Below are positions 2,376 to 10,966 of a DNA stretch of 10,966 nt, piece after piece. The translations under genes were made by a program, and so were the position numbers. This DNA is from an uncultured Gammaproteobacteria bacterium (GTDB lineage Bacteria > Patescibacteriota > Patescibacteriia > 2-01-FULL-39-33). The notes under the pieces are model-generated. The model was not told where the DNA came from, ran no database searches, and saw only the letters and a program-made list of their open reading frames with translations. The DNA is taken from assembly GCA_964650755.1 (NCBI GenBank), contig CAZYUN010000019.1, positions 677 to 11,642 on the forward strand. Direction: 5' to 3'. How positions within the stretch are numbered: the stretch's first letter is position 1; each line of letters starts with the position of its first letter.

Positions 2376-2825
2376 CTATGGCCTGGAATTTTCAGTCAAA
2401 AATTTGTGACGATGGCGCGCCGATGCCCAATGCTGATAGTATTCTGACAAGTCGGGACGATGCGCCAAATCCAATATTCGCCTGACCATATGCAAAATCT
2501 CCAATTGATCCACATTACCAGTTAAAACAACCGGTCTAAATTCTTTTGCGATATTGATATCATTATAAAAAATGTCAATATTAACATTTGATTGATGCGC
2601 TCTGAAAATCTTAAACACTAAGCCATCATTAGATGACTCCAACAATCTGAATTCTATCTCAAACAGATCTTCCAACTGAAACGTCTCTACTCGCATGAAT
2701 TGCGCGGATTTCAAGCTTTGACGAACTTTCGTAGCGAATTCTTCAGACATTAACATTCTTTCGAATAACCAATCAATCAAACGTTTTGTGCCTTCTTTCG
2801 GCAATTCCAGTTTGTCTTGTGTCAT
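2376..2825 (-). CDS. Hypothetical protein (149 aa), no recognisable family. GC is modestly elevated at about 39%.
   Basis: Complete ORF. Canonical SD AAGGAG sits 7 nt upstream of the ATG (complement of 2826-2845 reads tggctaaaaAGGAGtatttccATG). It has its own strong terminator. The C-terminal region 'RRILDLAHRPD' loosely matches a HEPN-like Rx4-6H motif, but that is not diagnostic. Confidence 0.6.
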   Translation of the reverse strand: MTQDKLELPKEGTKRLIDWLFERMLMSEEFATKVRQSLKSAQFMRVETFQLEDLFEIEFRLLESSNDGLVFKIFRAHQSNVNIDIFYNDINIAKEFRPVVLTGNVDQLEILHMVRRILDLAHRPDLSEYYQHWASARHRHKFLTENSRP

Positions 2826-4430: not shown

Positions 4431-5148
4431 TTTTATTAATTTTATAATTTAAAAATTTTTTTCGTTGATTTTCAGAAAAACGCTCTATGGCATATCTTAA
4501 GGTTGTTCTGGGCATTATTTCAATATGTTTCCATAAAAAATCTTCTAAATCCAAAACGCTAACTCTTTTGCCACTCTCCCGCAACATCCAGCCAATCGCT
4601 TTATGTATTAAATCATGTTTATCTTTTAATAATTTCTCAGCTATTTCAAAAGTTAAAGAATTAACCCCTTGACGCAAATGATAAAAAGTTGAAACTATCG
4701 CGATTCTTTTTAGCCACAAAGATTTTTTATTAGCTAATAATTTTAAATCCGGTTGCTTAAAATGAAAACTGCAATAACCAACAATATCATAAGCGGTCAA
4801 ATCAACCAAATCCCAATTATTAATAAATTGATAGTGTTTTAAATAAAAACGACATAATTTCTTCTTGTTAATATTATCAGCTTTTTTAAACTGATCCTTA
4901 ATTATTAATAAAGCGACTAATCTCTCTTCGTGATATTTGCTATTTAATAATTTAGAACAATCACTTAATTTTAAATTAAAAAATTTTTTAGCAACCCTTC
5001 TTTGTTGAGGTACTGTAATGCCCAAAAAAACATCACCCTCAGCATATTCTCCCTTGCCTGTTTTAAAAAACTTTTGAAGAATCTTTGCTTTTTGGGGATT
5101 AGCTAAAGATATTAATTCTGATTTTAATAATTGTAAATCGGAACTCAT
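4399..5148 (-). CDS. DNA alkylation repair enzyme, AlkD/AlkC-like HEAT-repeat DNA glycosylase family (249 aa).
   Basis: The N-terminal 'NPQKAKILQKFFKTGKGEYAEGDVFLGITVPQQRRVAKKF' closely matches the conserved opening of the DNA_alkylation (PF08713) family. Length and helical-repeat character also fit. No SD. Confidence 0.7.
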   Translation of the reverse strand: MSSDLQLLKSELISLANPQKAKILQKFFKTGKGEYAEGDVFLGITVPQQRRVAKKFFNLKLSDCSKLLNSKYHEERLVALLIIKDQFKKADNINKKKLCRFYLKHYQFINNWDLVDLTAYDIVGYCSFHFKQPDLKLLANKKSLWLKRIAIVSTFYHLRQGVNSLTFEIAEKLLKDKHDLIHKAIGWMLRESGKRVSVLDLEDFLWKHIEIMPRTTLRYAIERFSENQRKKFLNYKINKNENKSITTST

Positions 5149-5190
5149 AATAATTTATAACTATTTAATAAAAAACAAAAGTTTGTTTTA

Positions 5191-7743
5191 TCAAAGTCCA
5201 TATTTATTATAAAATTTATTTTTACCCCATTCAACAATCACAAAATAAATAAGACTAATACCGATAATAGAAGATAAAATCCAAACTGGTATAGGCTCAA
5301 AACCTAAAAATCGACCAATAGGAGCATAAATAAATAAAAAAATAATCAATAGAGTTATAAATGACGATAATAACAAAATATTAGCAGGACGACTCTTAAA
5401 AAATATTCTTTTTGTTCTAATAACAAAAATTAACAAAACCTCAGTTAAAAAAGATTGCCAAAACCAGCCGGTTTGAAAAAGTGGCATTGTAGCTTTAGCA
5501 ATTAAAATTAAAAAAATAAAGGTAATAAAATCAAAAAAAGAAGAAACTAAACCAAAATAATTCATAAATTTCTTTATATGATTAATGTCCCACTTCTTGG
5601 GATTATTAATTGATTCTTCATCGACATTATCATAAGCAATAGACAACATTGGCAAATCACTTAAAAAATTAAGCAATAAAACTTGAATTGGCAACATTGG
5701 AATAAATGGCAAAAATATTGAGGCCCCAACTACAGAAAACATGTTGCCATAATTAGAAGCAATGGTGCAAATTATATATTTCATTGTATTATTAAAGTTT
5801 CTACGCCCCCCACGAATTCCCTCAATTAAAATTGGCAAACTTTTTCTAAGTAAAACAACATCAGCAGCTTCTCTGGCTATATCTGTAGCTGAATTAACAG
5901 AAATACCCACATCAGCCATCTTAAGTGCGGGCGCATCATTAATACCATCACCCAAAAAAGCAACGCTATGACCAGTATCTTTTAATGCTTTGACGATTTT
6001 TAATTTATGTTCAGGAGTAACTTTAGCAAAAACATCAAAATCACTAACTACTTTTTGCAATTCTAAATCAGATAAGCCACTTAATTTATTACCAATAATT
6101 GCCTTAGGATTTAAAAAGCCGGTCTGCTTGGCTAAAAATAAAGCCGAGCCCAAAGAATCACCCGTTAATAATTTAATAGATACCCCCAAATCTCTAAAAG
6201 CATCTAATGATTTTTTAGAGCCTCTTTTTGGTGGATCATTAAAAACCAAAAAACCACTAAAAATTAAATTTTTTTGATTATTTTTTTTACTCTCCGATTC
6301 TAAATAATCATAAGCAACCAATAAAACTTTAAAACCTGCAGATTCAAGATTTTTTATTTTTTGTTTAATATTATTTAAAAAATAACTTATTTTTCTTTTT
6401 TTTCCATGGTATAAAATATAAGTACAAGCATCCAAAATTTCTTCAACCGCACCCTTAACAATTATCTGTGGTAATTCGTTATTAGACTTCACCACAACAC
6501 TCATTATCCTCTTATTAAAATCAAAGGGGGTGATGTTAATAAAACTATAATCTTTAATTTTCTTTGTTAATTTATGTTTTTTTGCATAATCAATAATAGC
6601 TTCATCTAATGGATTAGAAAAAGATTCGCCATTTTTTAAACTTAAAGAATTACATAATTGCGATAAAGTTATTAAATAATCATCTTGCACATCATCTAAA
6701 TCAAAATAATTATATAATTCTATTTTCCCCTCGGTTAATGTTCCCGTTTTGTCAGTACATAAAACATCAGCATTGCCTAAATTTTCAACTGCCATTAACT
6801 GTTTAACAATAACTGATTTTTTAGCCAAATTTCTAGCGGTCTGAGATAAATTTATAGTAATAATCATTGGTAATAATTCGGGCGATATACCAACAGCGAT
6901 AGCTAAAGAAAACATTAATGCTTCCAACCAATTACCCTTTAAAAAAGCAAGAAATAAAAAAATTAATAATGTAAATAAAATAATTATTTTAAATAAGAAA
7001 AAACCAAAACTATTAATGCTTTTTTGAAATTCCGATTCATTTTTTGAATTCAACAATAATTGTGAGTTTTTGCCAAATTCAGTATTTAAGCCAGTAGCAA
7101 CAACAACACCCAATCCTGAACCCTGAATAATATAAGTTCCCATAAAAACCAAATTTTTCATTATTTGTGGTAAATAATCACGAACAATTTGTGGATTAGA
7201 ATTTTTTTCAACCGGAAATGATTCACCGGTCAATGAAGATTCATCAACTAATAAACAATTTGATTTAACCAATCTAATATCTGCTGGCACAACACCACCA
7301 GCACTTAAAAAAACCATATCTCCAACAACTACATCAGTTACATGGATATTTATTTTTCTACCATCCCTAAAAACCCAAACATCCGAAGAAACTCTTTTTT
7401 TTAATAAAGAAATTGTTTTTTCGCTTTTATATTCTTGATAAAAAGAAAGACAGGAAGATAAAAATATAATAATAAAAATAATAAAAGTAGAAAGAAATTC
7501 TCCCAAAAAAAACGAAACTACTAATGCTAACAACAAAATTAAAATTAATGGATTTTTAAATTGTTTAAAAAAAATTTGAAAAATCATGGGCTCACCATTA
7601 TTACCAATGATGTTAAATCCATACTTGTTTAATCTGGATTTTGCTTCACCCTGAGAAATACCAGCAAATGAAGTATTAAAAACAGACAAAATATCATCAA
7701 CCCCTAACTCCCAAAAGGGTTTTATTGTTTTAATTTTAGACAT
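5191..7743 (-). CDS. Cation-transporting P-type ATPase (850 aa), MgtA/Ca2+-ATPase-like (P2/P3 type).
   Basis: Phosphorylation-site motif 'CTDKTGTLT' and actuator 'TGES' within 'VDESSLTGESFPVEK'. Also 'TGD' and hinge 'GDGINDAPALKMADVGISV'. About 10 transmembrane segments. The N-terminal 'ILSVFNTSFAGISQGEAKSRLNKYGFN' is a typical cation-ATPase N-domain. Size and the 'ES.PVEK' motif resemble Mg2+-importing MgtA. Confidence 0.85.
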   Translation of the reverse strand: MSKIKTIKPFWELGVDDILSVFNTSFAGISQGEAKSRLNKYGFNIIGNNGEPMIFQIFFKQFKNPLILILLLALVVSFFLGEFLSTFIIFIIIFLSSCLSFYQEYKSEKTISLLKKRVSSDVWVFRDGRKINIHVTDVVVGDMVFLSAGGVVPADIRLVKSNCLLVDESSLTGESFPVEKNSNPQIVRDYLPQIMKNLVFMGTYIIQGSGLGVVVATGLNTEFGKNSQLLLNSKNESEFQKSINSFGFFLFKIIILFTLLIFLFLAFLKGNWLEALMFSLAIAVGISPELLPMIITINLSQTARNLAKKSVIVKQLMAVENLGNADVLCTDKTGTLTEGKIELYNYFDLDDVQDDYLITLSQLCNSLSLKNGESFSNPLDEAIIDYAKKHKLTKKIKDYSFINITPFDFNKRIMSVVVKSNNELPQIIVKGAVEEILDACTYILYHGKKRKISYFLNNIKQKIKNLESAGFKVLLVAYDYLESESKKNNQKNLIFSGFLVFNDPPKRGSKKSLDAFRDLGVSIKLLTGDSLGSALFLAKQTGFLNPKAIIGNKLSGLSDLELQKVVSDFDVFAKVTPEHKLKIVKALKDTGHSVAFLGDGINDAPALKMADVGISVNSATDIAREAADVVLLRKSLPILIEGIRGGRRNFNNTMKYIICTIASNYGNMFSVVGASIFLPFIPMLPIQVLLLNFLSDLPMLSIAYDNVDEESINNPKKWDINHIKKFMNYFGLVSSFFDFITFIFLILIAKATMPLFQTGWFWQSFLTEVLLIFVIRTKRIFFKSRPANILLLSSFITLLIIFLFIYAPIGRFLGFEPIPVWILSSIIGISLIYFVIVEWGKNKFYNKYGL

Positions 7744-7748
7744 AAATA

Positions 7749-8561
7749 TTAATCATTCCTTAATAATGATAAAATATCTTTTATTTTTTTATTGGTCTCA
7801 TGCCAGCCCGCTTCAACTATTTGATTTTCACTTTTTTTCAAAAAATAATCACTCCATTTAGAATATTGTGATAAATTAGGTTCAATAATAATATCACTGT
7901 ATTGCATTGATAATTTAGATAGATTTTGTCGTAATAAATCCATAGTCCTAATACTAATATCAATTAATTTTGGTTTTTGAATATTAAGATTTAATTCTCC
8001 ACGATGATCTAAATTAACTGAAATAATAATATCGGCCCCCATTTGTTTCAATAAATCATCCGGCACCGGATCAGAAATACCACCGTCAGCCAAAAGTTTA
8101 CCTTCAAACACAACCGGCCGAAAAACACCCGGTACCGCCATACTGGCACGACACGCAAAAGCCAAATTACCGGTTTTAAATATATATTGTTCGCCACTAA
8201 TCAAATCGGTTGTGGTAATAGCCATGGGAATTTTTAAATCAGTAAAATTAGCATGATTTAACCAAACATCCAGCATTGACTCTAATTTATTTCCACCAAC
8301 TAAACCGCCACGTAATTTTAACTCTAAAAAACTAAGTAGTTTTTCTTTTTTCTTGCCAACCGTAAAATCTCTTAATAATTCCACATCTTGAAACAAAGCA
8401 TAATGAGCGCCAACCCAAGAACCAATACTGGAACCGGCTATTAAATCAATGGGGATATTATTTTCTACCAAAGCTTTAATCACTCCAACATGTGCCAAAC
8501 CTCGAACCCCACCACTACCTAAAGCCAAGCCAACCTTCTTGTTATACTTATTATTTAACAT
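7749..8561 (-). CDS. Patatin-like phospholipase (RssA/YjjU-like, 270 aa).
   Basis: Oxyanion-hole 'GSGGVRG', nucleophile elbow 'GSSIG' (GxSxG) and catalytic 'ADGGIS' (DGG/DGA Asp) lie in canonical order and spacing. It ends 5 nt before the ATPase start codon, which implies co-transcription. Confidence 0.85.
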   Translation of the reverse strand: MLNNKYNKKVGLALGSGGVRGLAHVGVIKALVENNIPIDLIAGSSIGSWVGAHYALFQDVELLRDFTVGKKKEKLLSFLELKLRGGLVGGNKLESMLDVWLNHANFTDLKIPMAITTTDLISGEQYIFKTGNLAFACRASMAVPGVFRPVVFEGKLLADGGISDPVPDDLLKQMGADIIISVNLDHRGELNLNIQKPKLIDISIRTMDLLRQNLSKLSMQYSDIIIEPNLSQYSKWSDYFLKKSENQIVEAGWHETNKKIKDILSLLRND

Positions 8562-8641: not shown

Positions 8642-9142
8642 TTAATTATTTTTTTGTGCTTCAAGATCAACCCACTGGAGTGGCAAATGCATCCTGCCCA
8701 CCTCTCCTCGATTATAAAGCCAAACACCATTTCCTAAACCATTGAATTTAATACCGTGATAAAAATTCTTAGTTTCAGCAAAAGCAACCAACTCTTCATT
8801 ATACAATTCAAAAACATAAACACCAGAACCAACAACTGCACCGCCATGATACATTACGGCGATTTTGGTTGAGTCCTTAGACCAAGCTATGCCCTTTAGA
8901 TCATTGGCATAACGAATATAAGGCAAAACATTCCAATCATAAGCAAAAGATCCGCCACAACCAAAGCGCTTAAAAACGCCTATTTGACCGGTACCAATCG
9001 GCTGAATTTCACGAGCATAAAACAAGCCATTAGGCGAATAAGCTTTGGCACCAATCGGAACAGAACCATCAAAAGAATTGACATTAGCCGAGCAACCAAG
9101 CAACAAAAAAATCATCAAACACAGCAACAATTGGATTTTCAT
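8642..9142 (-). CDS. Lipoprotein of unknown function (about 166 aa from the ATG at 9142). GC is elevated at about 40%.
   Basis: The track ORF begins at a TTG at 9163. The ATG at 9140-9142 is preferred because GGAG sits 7 nt upstream (aGGAGaccaaccATG). That start gives MKIQLLLCLMIFLLLGC-SANVN, a classic signal peptidase II lipobox (L-L-G-C). The mature part is Gly/Tyr-rich and probably beta-rich ('YDWNVLPYIRYANDLKGIAWSKDSTKIAVMYHGGAVVGSGVYVFELY'). No family recognised. Confidence 0.65.
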   Translation of the reverse strand: MKIQLLLCLMIFLLLGCSANVNSFDGSVPIGAKAYSPNGLFYAREIQPIGTGQIGVFKRFGCGGSFAYDWNVLPYIRYANDLKGIAWSKDSTKIAVMYHGGAVVGSGVYVFELYNEELVAFAETKNFYHGIKFNGLGNGVWLYNRGEVGRMHLPLQWVDLEAQKNN

Positions 9143-9212
9143 GGTTGGTCTCCAAGGGTACAACTACCCTGATTCGGATTTTAAGTACTACACCCCTCAT
9201 TGGTTTTTTACT

Positions 9213-9240
9213 CCCCAATCAAAAAAAAGTCAAATAAAAA
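9213..9240. repeat. Direct repeat copy 1 (ccccaa...aaaaagtcaaataaaaaa). Its partner lies at 10871-10894.
   Basis: The 18-nt string aaaaagtcaaataaaaaa occurs exactly at 9223-9240 and again at 10875-10892. Both copies are preceded by cccc(a)a a few nt upstream. Together the copies bracket the flotillin gene and its leader. Confidence 0.5.
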
Positions 9241-9270
9241 AGCGTGGGTCTGAATTTACAGACAACCACG
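9223..9270 (-). terminator. Rho-independent terminator for the flotillin gene.
   Basis: On the minus strand the stem gcgtgg+gtctg (9241-9251) pairs with cagac(aa)ccacgc (9258-9270) around loop aattta. It is immediately followed by UUUUUUAUUUGACUUUUUUUU (complement of 9220-9240). It lies 17 nt past the flotillin stop (9287-9289). Confidence 0.7.
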
Positions 9271-9286
9271 CATTGAGTCAAAGAGC

Positions 9287-10642
9287 TTATTTGCTGGCTT
9301 CCGGGGCGACGGGGGCGCTCTCCACGGGAGTGACCGGCTTAACCGGATTGACACCGAGAGCAGACAAGATCGCTTGGCCCATGGGGGTCTGAGCCACCCC
9401 TTCAATCATCGAGCCCAACTCGGTTCCGCCTCTGGAGCTGAAGAGCTCCATAACGCCCTTCACACCATCACCGGGGCTACCCGCATTGGAGATGACCCTG
9501 ACTTCCGCTTTCTGCAACGCCTTGGCCTGCTCAACCCCGACCTGAATGTGGGCCTTGATGGCCTCAATCGACACGAGGTAGCGCTGATACCCATCATTGG
9601 CACCAATCTCCTTGGCAAGAGCAATTGATGCACTAACAGGCACCATTTGCATGGCCGATTCGGCTGTGGCTTTCGCTTCACCGATGGTCTTGATGGCTTC
9701 CGCTTCCTTGAATTTGGCTTCGAGCTCACCCTCAGCGATAATGACGCGAGTCCGCTTACCCTGCTCGGCGGTGACAATCTCTTTCTCCTTTTCAATTTCT
9801 GCAGTACGAACCGCCAGAACACTGGCCACATCCATCTCGCGCTGCTTGGTCACCTTGGACTGAGCCAAGACCTCCTGTTGCGCTTGCTGGTTGGCGATAC
9901 CAACGGCCCGATCTTTCTCGGCGGTCCGCTGACCGATCATCTCCTCGGCTTCCTGACGGCAAACCTCCACTGTGCGCGTAGCTTCGATTTCCGCCGTTTC
10001 GGCAGTCTGATTATTATTCGCAACTTCGCGCCTGGATTCCATCTGAATTTGCGAGGTTTTCTTTGCCATGATATTTTCAACCACGTTACTATTGCTACAG
10101 TCGCGCAGATCCATAAGCTCCATAGATTTGACCGCTTCAAGACCCCACTCCTGCAACTGATCCCTAACCTCGGCGGTAAATGCATCACCAAATTGGGAAC
10201 GCTCAACCATGATTGTGTCAATAACACCCGAAGCCAAAACCTTACGCACAGCACCCCGCACAATCACTGTTGCCTGATTTTTGAGTTCTTCAAAGCTGGA
10301 AATACGTTGTGCCGCTTTCGCCGCATCCTGAATACGAAAAAATGCAGTAACATCAACCATAAATGGAACCCTGTCCCTATCATACGCATCATAACTCTCA
10401 AGAGATATATCAAAATTACTAATCGGCAACCGAATAACCGTTACACCAAACATCGGGATTGCTGATGGCCACGCATAATACACATTGCCAGCGACCTGCC
10501 CCGTTCCGTATGGGGTTGTCTTGCGACGACTTTGGACAATATGCACCATATTGGTACTCACCACTCGCCGAAACTTGATTGATATCAAGAAAGACAAAAA
10601 CCCAACAAATCCCAAACATCCCAGGATTGCGATCATACTCAT
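9287..10642 (-). CDS. Flotillin-like SPFH/band-7 domain membrane protein (451 aa), similar to FloT/YuaG and YqiK. Compositionally foreign at about 63% GC.
   Basis: The N-terminal hydrophobic anchor (MSMIAILGCLGFVGFLSFLISIKF) is followed by an SPFH core ('VPFMVDVTAFFRIQDAAKAAQRI...ATVIVRGAVRKVLASGVIDTIMVERSQFGDAFTAEVRDQLQEWGLE'). A long Ala/Glu-rich coiled-coil tail with EA-type repeats follows ('AEIEKEKEIVTAEQGKRTRVIIAEGELEAKFKEAEAIKTIGEAKATAE'), which is the defining flotillin architecture. AAGGAG lies 7 nt upstream of the ATG at 10642. GC counted over 9301-9500 is 126/200, against about 28% in the neighbours. Confidence 0.85.
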   Translation of the reverse strand: MSMIAILGCLGFVGFLSFLISIKFRRVVSTNMVHIVQSRRKTTPYGTGQVAGNVYYAWPSAIPMFGVTVIRLPISNFDISLESYDAYDRDRVPFMVDVTAFFRIQDAAKAAQRISSFEELKNQATVIVRGAVRKVLASGVIDTIMVERSQFGDAFTAEVRDQLQEWGLEAVKSMELMDLRDCSNSNVVENIMAKKTSQIQMESRREVANNNQTAETAEIEATRTVEVCRQEAEEMIGQRTAEKDRAVGIANQQAQQEVLAQSKVTKQREMDVASVLAVRTAEIEKEKEIVTAEQGKRTRVIIAEGELEAKFKEAEAIKTIGEAKATAESAMQMVPVSASIALAKEIGANDGYQRYLVSIEAIKAHIQVGVEQAKALQKAEVRVISNAGSPGDGVKGVMELFSSRGGTELGSMIEGVAQTPMGQAILSALGVNPVKPVTPVESAPVAPEASK

Positions 10643-10710
10643 CCATTTTCTCCTTTTTCTTTTCTTTTTTTGCTAAACTTCCAACCCACCTTAGGTTAGA
10701 ATACAGCTCA

Positions 10711-10764
10711 GAAAAAACCCCTCAATAAAATGATAGATTTACTCTGAGCTGTATAGAAGTCCAA
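10711..10764. promoter_or_regulatory. A 12-bp perfect inverted repeat (atacagctcaga ... tctgagctgtat) with a 30-nt spacer, in the flotillin 5' leader.
   Basis: Read directly from the sequence: 10711-10722 pairs with 10753-10764. It lies about 70-120 nt upstream of the flotillin ATG on the transcribed (minus) strand. No U-tract follows, so it is not a classic terminator. It may be a leader structure or a dimeric protein-binding site. Confidence 0.35.
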
Positions 10765-10803
10765 CAAAAGAACTTTTAAAGACCTTTAATTTAGGTATAT
10801 AGC

Positions 10804-10832
10804 AACATAGCAGATTAAATTAAATTTGTCAA
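10804..10832 (-). promoter_or_regulatory. Putative sigma70-like promoter for the flotillin gene.
   Basis: On the minus strand, TTGACA (complement of 10827-10832) is followed by a 17-nt spacer and then TATGTT (complement of 10804-10809). This would give a leader of about 155 nt containing the inverted repeat. Motif match only. Confidence 0.3.
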
Positions 10833-10870
10833 GTAGGTACAAATTTAAATATTTTGTTTCCTACTTCTAA

Positions 10871-10894
10871 CCCCAAAAAGTCAAATAAAAAAAA
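10871..10894. repeat. Direct repeat copy 2, lying 10-30 nt from the 3' end of tRNA-Asn.
   Basis: Exact 18-nt match to 9223-9240, extendable to ccccaaaaagtcaaataaaaaaaa. See copy 1. Confidence 0.5.
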
Positions 10895-10903
10895 TCACCG
10901 GAA

Positions 10904-10966
10904 CTCCGCGAACTGGATTCGAACCAGTAACCTACCGGTTAACAGCCGGTTGCTCTACCATTGAGC
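10904..10966 (-). tRNA. tRNA-Asn (anticodon GUU). Partial: D-arm to discriminator are present and the 5' acceptor strand lies beyond the window end.
   Basis: The reverse complement reads GCTC-AATGGTA-GAGC (D-arm), A, ACCGG-CTGTTAA-CCGGT, AGGTT (variable loop), ACTGG-TTCGAAT-CCAGT (T-arm with TTCGAAT loop), TCGCGGA + G (discriminator). In the anticodon arm U33-GUU-A37 gives anticodon GUU. CCA is not encoded (TTCC follows). Confidence 0.85.

What the first reader, a model, noticed from the sequence alone, without database searches (positions are those of the whole stretch)
9287..10642. Composition and codon-usage break inside the flotillin ORF (N-terminal anchor about 47% GC, remainder about 63%)
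The first ~67 codons (10441-10642) count 94/200 G+C, or 47%. They use host-like codons such as TTT, TTG, GTT and ATA. The SPFH core and coiled-coil tail sit at about 63% GC and use codons such as GCC, GAG, CTC and GGC. This gradient suggests one of two things. The gene may be a mosaic in which a foreign SPFH/coiled-coil body was recombined onto a more native-like membrane anchor and leader. Alternatively, the island's 5' portion may derive from a different source than its 3' portion.
Basis: seen in the sequence. Interest (0 to 1): 0.55.

Follow-up and report, generated by a model that had tools for sequence, protein, structure and literature searches.

The report
Foreign flotillin-like gene, patchwork by recombination

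Summary
The ORF (9287-10642, minus strand) is real: 451 aa, with a membrane helix, an SPFH domain and long helices. Its first 67 codons are 47% GC as stated, but the rest is 52.6%, not 63%, and a break at codon 67 is not significant (p=0.13).

There is real third-position GC (GC3) heterogeneity. It has a trough at codons 61-135 (0.23-0.40) and reaches 0.63-0.80 in the C-terminal half (0/2000 permutations). This shape is absent from 73-83 homologues (z about 4.5), so it is not hydrophobic-residue or amino-acid bias.

The whole gene (52% GC) is foreign to a 31% GC host. A relative, L105, has the empty site. The 1,633-nt unit (AT-rich structured leader, gene, terminator) lies just 3' of tRNA-Asn, between 18-26-nt direct repeats.

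Strain comparison shows intragenic recombination. One block, codons 60-213, is 23% divergent (dS 0.90) against 4.5% (dS 0.10) elsewhere. Similar tracts of about 0.5 kb occur in neighbouring host genes.

The idea of a native anchor and leader joined to a foreign body is rejected, because leader and anchor belong to the insert. "Mosaic" is right in a different form.

Side finding: the 126-nt leader RNA is conserved with covariation in four lineages and has no Rfam family.

The parts
10904..10966 (-). 3' two-thirds of a tRNA-Asn(GTT) gene, cut by the window end. The insert lies about 11 nt downstream of it.
   Evidence: Rfam tRNA 53.6 bits, 5'-truncated. The full gene is called by ARAGORN in the collinear loci L002 9668-9741, L004 and L105.
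10875..10892 (.). Direct repeat copy 1 (tRNA-proximal, attL-like): AAAAAGTCAAATAAAAAA on the + strand.
   Evidence: Perfect 18-nt repeat, spacing 1651 (D3). It is 26 nt perfect in L002, and 0/5000 Markov simulations give an 18-mer repeat. It is single-copy in the empty site L105. Imperfect similarity extends to about 38-40 nt.
10804..10832 (-). Promoter-like site of the cassette: TTGACA, 17 nt, TG-TATGTT.
   Evidence: Consensus scan, 10/12 with an extended -10 TG. The -35 and -10 blocks are conserved in L184.
10660..10785 (-). Structured 5' leader RNA: a closing helix plus a long hairpin and a short hairpin, ending just upstream of the GGAG ribosome-binding site at 10650-10653.
   Evidence: MFE z=-5.4 and no Rfam family. 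Covariance-model hits lie upstream of flotillin in L184, L185/L186 and L191 at 92-117 bits. There are 43 pairs, 95% paired, 12 with compensatory changes, and 0/500 shuffles reach this.
10466..10642 (-). Segment A of the ORF (codons 1-59): membrane helix 2-23 and the start of the SPFH fold. GC 46.7%, GC3 0.52.
   Evidence: Window vs L002 dS 0.10; window vs L004 identical. AF2 helix 2-23.
10004..10465 (-). Segment B (codons 60-213, SPFH core): the divergent recombination block and the GC3 trough. GC 44.7%, GC3 0.43, minimum 0.23.
   Evidence: The best two-breakpoint block is nt 178-639, with 23.2% vs 4.5% divergence, Fisher p=2.8e-24. dS is 0.90 and dN/dS 0.19. The GC3 deviation has z of -2.8 and -3.5 against the family.
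9287..10003 (-). Segment C (codons 214-451, long helices and C-terminal tail): the GC-rich part. GC 57.7%, GC3 0.66.
   Evidence: The three strains are about 5-6% apart in a star-like pattern, whereas window and L004 are identical in A+B.
9242..9271 (-). Terminator hairpin of the cassette (GCGTGG...CCACGC). Its T-tract runs into repeat copy 2.
   Evidence: Read from the sequence. Analogous hairpin + T-run terminators follow the gene in L184, L185 and L191.
9224..9241 (.). Direct repeat copy 2 (attR-like). It contains a TTGACT -35-like hexamer in front of the downstream lipoprotein-like ORF 8642-9163.
   Evidence: promoter-like TTGACT-17-TAAATT at 9281-9253 nearby. L105 has the same sequence once, directly between the tRNA and the ORF homologue.

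Best explanation
The ORF encodes a flotillin-like SPFH membrane scaffold. It is carried on a small, self-contained, horizontally acquired cassette of promoter, structured leader, gene and terminator (1,633 nt).

The cassette is inserted about 11 nt downstream of tRNA-Asn in an AT-rich (31% GC) Parcubacteria/Patescibacteria genome. An 18-26-nt direct repeat, a promoter-like host sequence that is single-copy in an empty-site relative, flanks it. The gene's codon usage matches a donor of roughly 45-53% GC and has not yet drifted to host composition.

The internal composition ramp is not an anchor/body fusion. It reflects a patchwork history. Related strains exchange tracts of about 0.5 kb by homologous recombination. 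The flotillin gene consists of at least three such pieces:
- codons 1-59;
- codons 60-213;
- codons 214-451.

These pieces have different coalescence ages. The SPFH-core piece is old, with strain alleles at dS 0.9, and has the more AT-shifted third positions. The ends and the leader are young (dS 0.1), younger than the host backbone, and still GC-rich.

Shown: the insertion polymorphism, the foreign composition, the recombination blocks, and that the ramp is not a family property.

Inferred: that GC3 differences between pieces come from different residence times or donors, and how the cassette inserted, since it encodes no recombinase.
For: Foreign composition:
- The gene is 51.8% GC with GC3 0.56. 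The eight neighbouring ORFs are 28-39% GC with GC3 0.18-0.41.
- Gene minus flank is +0.21, above the maximum (+0.175) of the 74 GTDB family homologues with enough flank (family mean +0.026, sd 0.055). A metagenome homologue with only 360 nt of flank, L191, is higher at +0.25.
- Across the family, segment GC3 tracks host GC (r about 0.84). This implies donors of 45/40/53% (+/-6) for segments A/B/C.

Insertion:
- L105 reads rpoD, tRNA-Asn, one repeat copy, lipoprotein ORF, patatin. Its two BLAST HSPs to the window (10966-10875 and 9241-7802) overlap exactly on the repeat.
- The same occupied junctions occur in independent assemblies L001-L005, so this is not an assembly chimera.
- L189 carries a type I R-M/Fic/SduA island at the same tRNA.

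Host: RpoD is closest to Parcubacteria ADurb.Bin326 and Buchananbacteria.

Mosaic:
- Window vs L002 differences are 107/462 in nt 178-639 and 40/894 outside (p=2.8e-24).
- Window vs L004 differences are 2/660 and then 41/696 (p=2e-10).
- dS is 0.90 in B against 0.10-0.11 in A and C, with dN/dS 0.19. This is deeper ancestry, not positive selection.
- Excluding B, the cassette is 94-98% identical between L004 and L002. Flanking rpoD and the downstream ORF are 83-91%.

Recombination is general in this population:
- The ATPase gene is 100% identical between window and L002 amid genes with dS 0.45-0.7.
- A 480-nt tract in patatin carries all 45 differences between window and L001.

Not a family property:
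- GC3(C) minus GC3(B) is -0.04 +/- 0.055 in 73 homologues, and +0.15 to +0.21 here (z=4.5).
- The normalised 30-codon profile is flat in 83 homologues.
- The closest outgroups have flat GC3 (L184, L185, L187, L191).
Against: - The GC3 ramp does not coincide sharply with the recombination breakpoints. The best single GC3 breakpoint is codon 155 and the best three-part split is 155/352, against recombination breakpoints at about 60 and 213.
- L002, whose B allele is dS 0.9 away, shows the same GC3 trough. The trough therefore predates that split and cannot be the by-product of one recent import.
- The two B alleles are sisters at synonymous sites: pS is 0.54 against 0.72-0.93 to outgroups.
- No external donor for the GC-rich C segment was found. 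The best hit is 60-67% aa.
- Lineage-specific changes in C show no significant GC->AT excess (31 vs 19, p=0.57), so ongoing amelioration is not demonstrated.
- Only three allele lineages are available.
- No integrase or transposase is in the insert, so the insertion mechanism is unknown. A precise deletion in L105 between the repeats cannot be formally excluded.
Confidence: 0.6

Rival explanations
1. One reading: a native, host-like leader and N-terminal membrane anchor was fused by recombination to a foreign GC-rich SPFH/coiled-coil body at about codon 67.
For: The first 67 codons are 47% GC, a little below the gene mean. The leader is 31% GC. A strain-level recombination breakpoint lies near codon 60.
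Against: - The empty site L105 lacks the leader and anchor as well as the body.
- The leader is conserved with outgroup flotillin genes in other genomes.
- Residues 24-60 are 97% identical to P0003-P0006, the same nearest relatives as the body.
- GC drops to 34-45% right after codon 67, and the contrast at 67 is not significant.
- GC3 of the first 67 codons (0.51) is far above the host's.
Confidence: 0.04
2. The profile is intrinsic to the protein family. Hydrophobic or beta-rich N-terminal residues use AT-rich codons, and the Ala/Glu-rich coiled coil uses GC-rich codons. No mosaic history would then be needed.
For: Total GC of segment C exceeds that of B by +0.043 +/- 0.022 across the family. 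GC1 rises from 0.43-0.55 to 0.65 along the window gene. Part of the total-GC gradient is therefore amino-acid driven.
Against: - GC3, which is independent of amino-acid choice, carries the signal (0.43 vs 0.66).
- Within single amino acids the codons switch: Ala GCC 1/18 vs 20/37.
- The family GC3 profile is flat, and the window is an outlier at z=4.5 (GC3) and z=3.3 (total GC).
Confidence: 0.08
3. Single acquisition with an inherited ramp. The donor's gene already had the GC3 trough, or selection on the mRNA keeps the 5' half AT-richer and the 3' half GC-richer. The strain-level recombination blocks would then be unrelated to composition.
For: The trough is shared by the two B alleles that are dS 0.9 apart. 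GC3 breakpoints (155, 352) do not match the recombination breakpoints (60, 213). No separate donor for C was found.
Against: - None of about 85 other family genes, including the four closest with DNA, shows such a ramp.
- Family members in other hosts of 28-37% GC have low GC3 throughout (0.15-0.5), so there is no general selection for a GC-rich 3' half.
- dS in A and C is 9-fold below that in B and below the host backbone. This shows different ages of the pieces.
Confidence: 0.22
4. Artefact: a chimeric metagenome assembly joined a GC-rich contig to an AT-rich genome.
For: An abrupt GC change at repeats is a classic signature of mis-assembly.
Against: The same junctions, the same order and 89-99% identity are found in at least five independently assembled contigs from different projects (Logan SRR10769903, SRR27460157 and SRR27460160; ENA ERZ926039 and ERZ27298648).
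Confidence: 0.01

Closest known systems
tRNA-linked genomic islands / islets
   Same: It sits directly 3' of a tRNA gene and is bounded by direct repeats. Its GC and codon usage are aberrant. It is present or absent among close relatives, and different cargo occupies the same tRNA site in another relative (L189).
   Different: It is only 1.65 kb with a single gene and no integrase or other recombinase. The repeat lies downstream of the tRNA and does not include the tRNA 3' end. The repeat looks like a host promoter and T-tract rather than a recognised att core.
Mosaic genes made by homologous recombination, such as the pbp genes of Streptococcus and Neisseria (from general knowledge)
   Same: Blocks of sharply elevated divergence with clear breakpoints lie inside one ORF. 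Synonymous divergence is elevated in the block. Different strain pairs share different blocks.
   Different: No phenotype or selection is known here. Similar tracts occur in neighbouring housekeeping-type genes (patatin, ATPase, AlkD), so this looks like background recombination rather than a selected mosaic.
Amelioration of horizontally transferred genes (Lawrence and Ochman model, from general knowledge)
   Same: This is a GC-rich gene in an AT-rich genome. The piece with the oldest coalescence has the most host-like third positions. A start at GC3 of about 0.65, decaying over dS/2 of about 0.45 towards about 0.2, predicts about 0.45-0.47, and 0.43-0.47 is observed in B (a rough calculation of my own).
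   Different: A directional GC->AT excess was not detected in segment C. The model alone does not explain why the ends stayed GC-rich.
Bacterial flotillin-like SPFH proteins (FloT/YuaG, YqiK) and eukaryotic flotillin-1/2
   Same: It has an N-terminal membrane helix, an SPFH domain and then about 200 residues of long helices. Only the flotillin complex chains (9bq2, 9l3g) align over the full length in the fold search (432-445 columns).
   Different: Identity to solved flotillins is 16-20%. The Pfam flotillin C-terminal domain is not detected. Stomatin and QmcA score as well or better on the SPFH domain. No NfeD-type partner gene is adjacent.

Membership tests
SPFH / Band 7 superfamily | SPFH domain detectable by profile | tested here: met
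   Pfam PF01145 Band_7 E=2.5e-17, 63.9 bits against a cut-off of 23.6, residues 44-215. Profile hits to PH stomatin, QmcA, stomatin and flotillin-1 in the PDB.
SPFH / Band 7 superfamily | SPFH alpha/beta fold followed by long helices, with an N-terminal membrane anchor | tested here: met
   AF2 model with pLDDT 70: helix 2-23, strands and helices 26-180, helices 187-378. Foldseek PDB hits: stomatin 6e-12, flotillin 1e-10, QmcA, HflK/C, prohibitin, all with probability 1.00.
Flotillin subfamily (reggie/FloT/YqiK type) | Flotillin-specific C-terminal domain recognisable by sequence profile | tested here: not met
   Only Band_7 was reported by the Pfam scan at E<=0.001, and there was no NCBIfam family. 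The label 'flotillin' comes from JGI annotation of homologues.
Flotillin subfamily (reggie/FloT/YqiK type) | Full-length structural correspondence to flotillin | tested here: inconclusive
   9bq2 and 9l3g align over 405-445 columns at 16-20% identity, but TM is only about 0.3 and rmsd is large because the long helices are placed differently in a monomer model.
SPFH-NfeD operons | Adjacent NfeD-family partner gene | tested here: not met
   Upstream is the tRNA. Downstream is a 173-aa lipoprotein-like ORF with no Pfam or NCBIfam hit, and it is present at the empty site too.
tRNA-associated genomic island | Insertion adjacent to a tRNA gene with flanking direct repeats and an empty site in relatives | tested here: met
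tRNA-associated genomic island | Aberrant base composition relative to the host | tested here: met
   51.8% against 31% GC, above every one of the 74 GTDB homologues with enough flank.
tRNA-associated genomic island | Encodes its own integrase or recombinase | tested here: not met
   The 1,633-nt insert holds one ORF with a Pfam hit (Band_7). Other ORFs there are antisense or overlapping frames in GC-rich DNA.
Recombination mosaic gene | Significant clustering of substitutions with elevated dS in the block, and different blocks shared by different strains | tested here: met
   p=2.8e-24 and 2e-10. dS 0.90 against 0.10. Window equals L004 in A+B but not in C.
Amelioration in progress | Excess of GC->AT over AT->GC lineage-specific changes | tested here: inconclusive
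   31 vs 19 in segment C, p=0.57 against expectation. The window lineage alone goes the other way, 7 vs 11.

The most novel reading that the evidence does not exclude
The unit that moves is a recombinase-less cassette whose conserved 126-nt, three-helix 5' leader (window 10660-10785, no Rfam family) is a new cis-regulatory RNA dedicated to this flotillin-like gene in Parcubacteria. The cassette repeatedly enters AT-rich Patescibacteria genomes and stays GC-rich. It may insert by capturing a host promoter/T-tract sequence that it duplicates, which keeps the downstream gene expressed.
Probability: 0.3. Interest if true: 0.55.

Novelty: new member of a known kind. Interest (0 to 1): 0.36.

Why it matters
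This is a clean, small example of how ultra-small Patescibacteria genomes gain and reshuffle accessory genes. It has an exact empty and occupied site pair next to a tRNA, a one-gene foreign cassette, and recombination tracts of about 0.5 kb that cut through genes.

It shows that a compositional "break" inside a gene should be tested on third codon positions and against homologues before being read as a domain fusion.

The conserved structured leader upstream of the gene is a candidate new regulatory RNA. It could give a handle on when these organisms, which depend on contact with host cells, deploy a membrane-scaffold protein.

Tried and rejected
- ARAGORN on the window found no tRNA because the gene is cut by the window end. 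Rfam and the relatives settled it.
- A test for amelioration direction in segment C was not significant.
- A search with segment C alone for a GC-rich donor gave a best hit of 60% identity. That run also failed to list the known 86-95% relatives, so it is weak evidence.
- Viral contigs hold only 38-52% homologues, so there is no sign of a phage vehicle for this lineage.
- NCBIfam gave no family for the flotillin-like ORF or for two hypothetical ORFs.
- Rfam gave no family for the leader.
- The leader covariance model found nothing upstream of about 100 other family loci, including the viral ones, or upstream of L192. The RNA is therefore confined to the closest subclade.
- The P0122 contig look-up was not on record.
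- I considered that segment B is an import from a sampled outgroup. I rejected this because pS between the two B alleles (0.54) is below pS to all outgroups (0.72-0.93).
- I considered positive selection on B. I rejected this because dN/dS is 0.19 and dS is 9-fold elevated.
- I considered an assembly chimera. I rejected this because there are five independent assemblies.

Full report
**1. The observation**

The ORF at 9287..10642 on the minus strand is real: 451 aa with an ATG start. A GGAG lies 7 nt upstream, read. Pfam gives Band_7/SPFH at 63.9 bits.

The second half of the statement is wrong.
- The remainder is 52.6-52.8% GC, not about 63%. No 300-nt stretch exceeds 61.7%.
- The region just after codon 67 is the lowest in the gene. 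Codons 76-105 are 34% GC with GC3 0.23.
- A break at codon 67 is not significant for GC (p=0.13) or GC3 (0.51 vs 0.57, p=0.35).
- The first 67 codons are not host-like. The eight other ORFs have GC3 0.18-0.41.

There is nonetheless real heterogeneity in third positions.
- The best single breakpoint is after codon 155 (0.41 -> 0.64). None of 2000 permutations reaches it.
- Codons 61-213 vs 214-451 have GC3 0.43 vs 0.66, p=6e-6.
- Ala GCC is 1/18 in the 5' half and 20/37 in the 3' half.
- The shape is a trough followed by a ramp, not a step.

**2. Not a family property**

The family is very conserved (58-69% identity) and patchily spread across Patescibacteria, Alphaproteobacteria, Gammaproteobacteria, Thermomicrobiales, Bdellovibrionales and Acidobacteriota.

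I threaded codons of 80 genome homologues onto the window protein.
- GC3(codons 211-400) minus GC3(61-210) is -0.04 +/- 0.055 with a maximum of +0.09. The window lineage has +0.15 to +0.21, z=4.5.
- A normalised 30-codon profile is flat in 83 homologues. The window deviates by -0.19 and -0.26 at codons 61-120, and by +0.21 and +0.24 at 241-270 and 361-390.
- Amino-acid composition explains only about 4 points of total GC.

**3. The whole gene is foreign, on a tiny cassette**

The gene is 51.8% GC against 31% in its flanks. This +0.21 exceeds the maximum (+0.175) of the 74 GTDB family members with enough flank. L191, with only 360 nt of flank, is higher. Segment GC3 tracks host GC across the family (r about 0.84). 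This implies donors of about 45, 40 and 53% GC for the three segments.

The window ends inside a tRNA-Asn(GTT) gene. An 18-nt perfect direct repeat brackets the gene at 10875-10892 and 9224-9241. It is 26 nt perfect in L002, and 0/5000 simulations give such a repeat.

A metagenome relative, L105, reads rpoD, tRNA-Asn, one repeat copy, lipoprotein-like ORF, patatin. Its backbone is 81% identical to the window. Its two alignments to the window overlap exactly on the repeat. So 9242-10874 is an indel of 1,633 nt holding the promoter-like site, leader, ORF and terminator hairpin. It contains no recombinase.

Occupied junctions recur in five independent assemblies. Another relative, L189, carries a type I R-M/Fic/SduA island after the same tRNA, so the site is a hot spot.

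RpoD places the host in Parcubacteria, near ADurb.Bin326 and Buchananbacteria.

**4. The gene is a recombination mosaic, in a different way than proposed**

- Window vs L004: nt 1-660 differ at 2 sites and nt 661-1356 at 41 sites (p=2e-10).
- Window vs L002: the best block is nt 178-639 (codons 60-213), with 23.2% divergence against 4.5% outside (p=2.8e-24).
- Synonymous divergence is 0.90 in the block against 0.10-0.11 outside, with dN/dS 0.19. This is deeper ancestry, not selection.
- The two block alleles are still sisters: pS is 0.54 against 0.72-0.93 to outgroups. The window/L004 allele carries about twice the amino-acid change.
- Outside the block, the cassette is 94-98% identical between L004 and L002, while flanking rpoD and the downstream ORF are 83-91%. 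The ends of the cassette are therefore younger than the host backbone.

Recombination tracts are general here.
- The P-type ATPase is 100% identical between window and L002 amid genes with dS 0.45-0.7, and is absent from L104.
- All 45 differences between window and L001 lie in a 480-nt stretch of patatin.

**5. Interpretation**

The native-anchor-plus-foreign-body model is rejected.
- Leader and anchor are inside the indel.
- The leader is conserved upstream of the nearest outgroup genes.
- Residues 24-60 have the same nearest relatives as the body.

I read the ramp as the signature of pieces with different residence times or donors in an un-ameliorated foreign gene. The old piece (B) is AT-shifted, and the young pieces (A, C) are still GC-rich.

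Several caveats apply.
- GC3 breakpoints (155, 352) do not match the recombination breakpoints (60, 213).
- L002 shares the trough although its B allele is dS 0.9 away.
- No donor for C was found.
- No GC->AT excess was detected.

An inherited ramp from one donor therefore remains a live rival.

**6. Protein identity**

The AF2 model (pLDDT 70) shows helix 2-23, an SPFH fold at 26-180 and long helices at 187-378. Foldseek hits stomatin, flotillin complexes (the only full-length alignments), QmcA, HflK/C and prohibitin. The Pfam flotillin C-terminal domain and an NfeD partner gene are absent.

"Flotillin-like SPFH protein" is justified. Strict flotillin membership is not shown.

**7. Side finding: the leader RNA**

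The leader (10660-10785, minus strand) folds far better than shuffles (z=-5.4) and has no Rfam family. A covariance model finds it upstream of the gene in L184, L185/L186 and L191, but not in about 100 other loci. It has 43 pairs, 95% of cells paired, 12 pairs with compensatory changes, and 0/500 shuffles reach this. The caveat is that the alignment was fitted to the model and covers only four lineages.

**8. Verdict**

The biology is a known kind: a tRNA-linked islet plus a recombination mosaic. It is well documented here, with a possibly new leader RNA as a bonus.

Noticed in passing
window 10660-10785 (-); also L184 115-243, L185 4738-4864, L191 100-223: A conserved 126-nt structured 5' leader lies between the promoter-like site and the ribosome-binding site of the flotillin-like gene. 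It has 43 base pairs, 12 of them with compensatory changes across four lineages. It has no Rfam family and was not found upstream of about 100 more distant homologues.
   Followed up: partly
window 5191-7743 (-), identical block about 4950-7770: The P-type ATPase gene is 100% identical at nucleotide level between the window and L002, although neighbouring genes have dS 0.45-0.7. It is precisely absent in L104, where patatin is followed directly by the AlkD homologue. This is a second recently moved accessory gene, this one with host-like GC (27.8%).
   Followed up: partly
window 7830-8310 (patatin, -) vs L001: All 45 differences between the window and the otherwise identical 5-kb contig L001 lie in one 480-nt tract inside patatin, at about 9% divergence. 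This is a clear short recombination tract, the same size class as flotillin block B.
   Followed up: yes
window 2376-2825 (-): A hypothetical 149-aa ORF with no Pfam or NCBIfam hit is only 51% identical to its L002 counterpart (dS about 1.8), far more divergent than the backbone. It is either a hypervariable gene or a replaced allele.
   Followed up: no
L189 7577-7841: In a relative (RpoD 88%), the tRNA-Asn gene is split in the anticodon loop by a group I intron (Rfam RF00028, 84.3 bits, E=5.6e-22), which is why ARAGORN misses the tRNA. Such introns in Patescibacteria tRNA-Asn are already described (PMC13011429).
   Followed up: yes
L189 8000-13344: Downstream of the same tRNA-Asn this relative carries HsdM, Fic, HsdS and an SduA_C-domain gene instead of flotillin and patatin. 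The tRNA-Asn flank is a variable defence/accessory hot spot.
   Followed up: no
L190 about 7219-7240 and 7406-7451: A 22-nt copy of the 5' end of tRNA-Asn is duplicated about 190 nt upstream of the full gene. This may be a scar of an earlier insertion or excision at this tRNA.
   Followed up: no
L007, L014, L044, L057, L185, L191 (flotillin loci in other Patescibacteria): The homologous gene is often 14-25 GC points richer than its flanks in Patescibacteria, with GC3 up to 0.85. It matches its flanks in Alphaproteobacteria. This suggests repeated transfer of this family into Patescibacteria.
   Followed up: partly
window 8642-9163 (-): The ORF downstream of the insert starts with a lipoprotein-type signal (MKIQLLLCLMIFLLLGC) and has no family hit. 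The repeat copy in front of it carries a TTGACT -35-like hexamer. The duplication may therefore preserve its promoter after the insertion.
   Followed up: no
L088, L094, L103 and other IMG/VR contigs: Distant homologues (38-52% identity) of this SPFH protein occur on viral-classified contigs, some of them 220-455 kb long.
   Followed up: no
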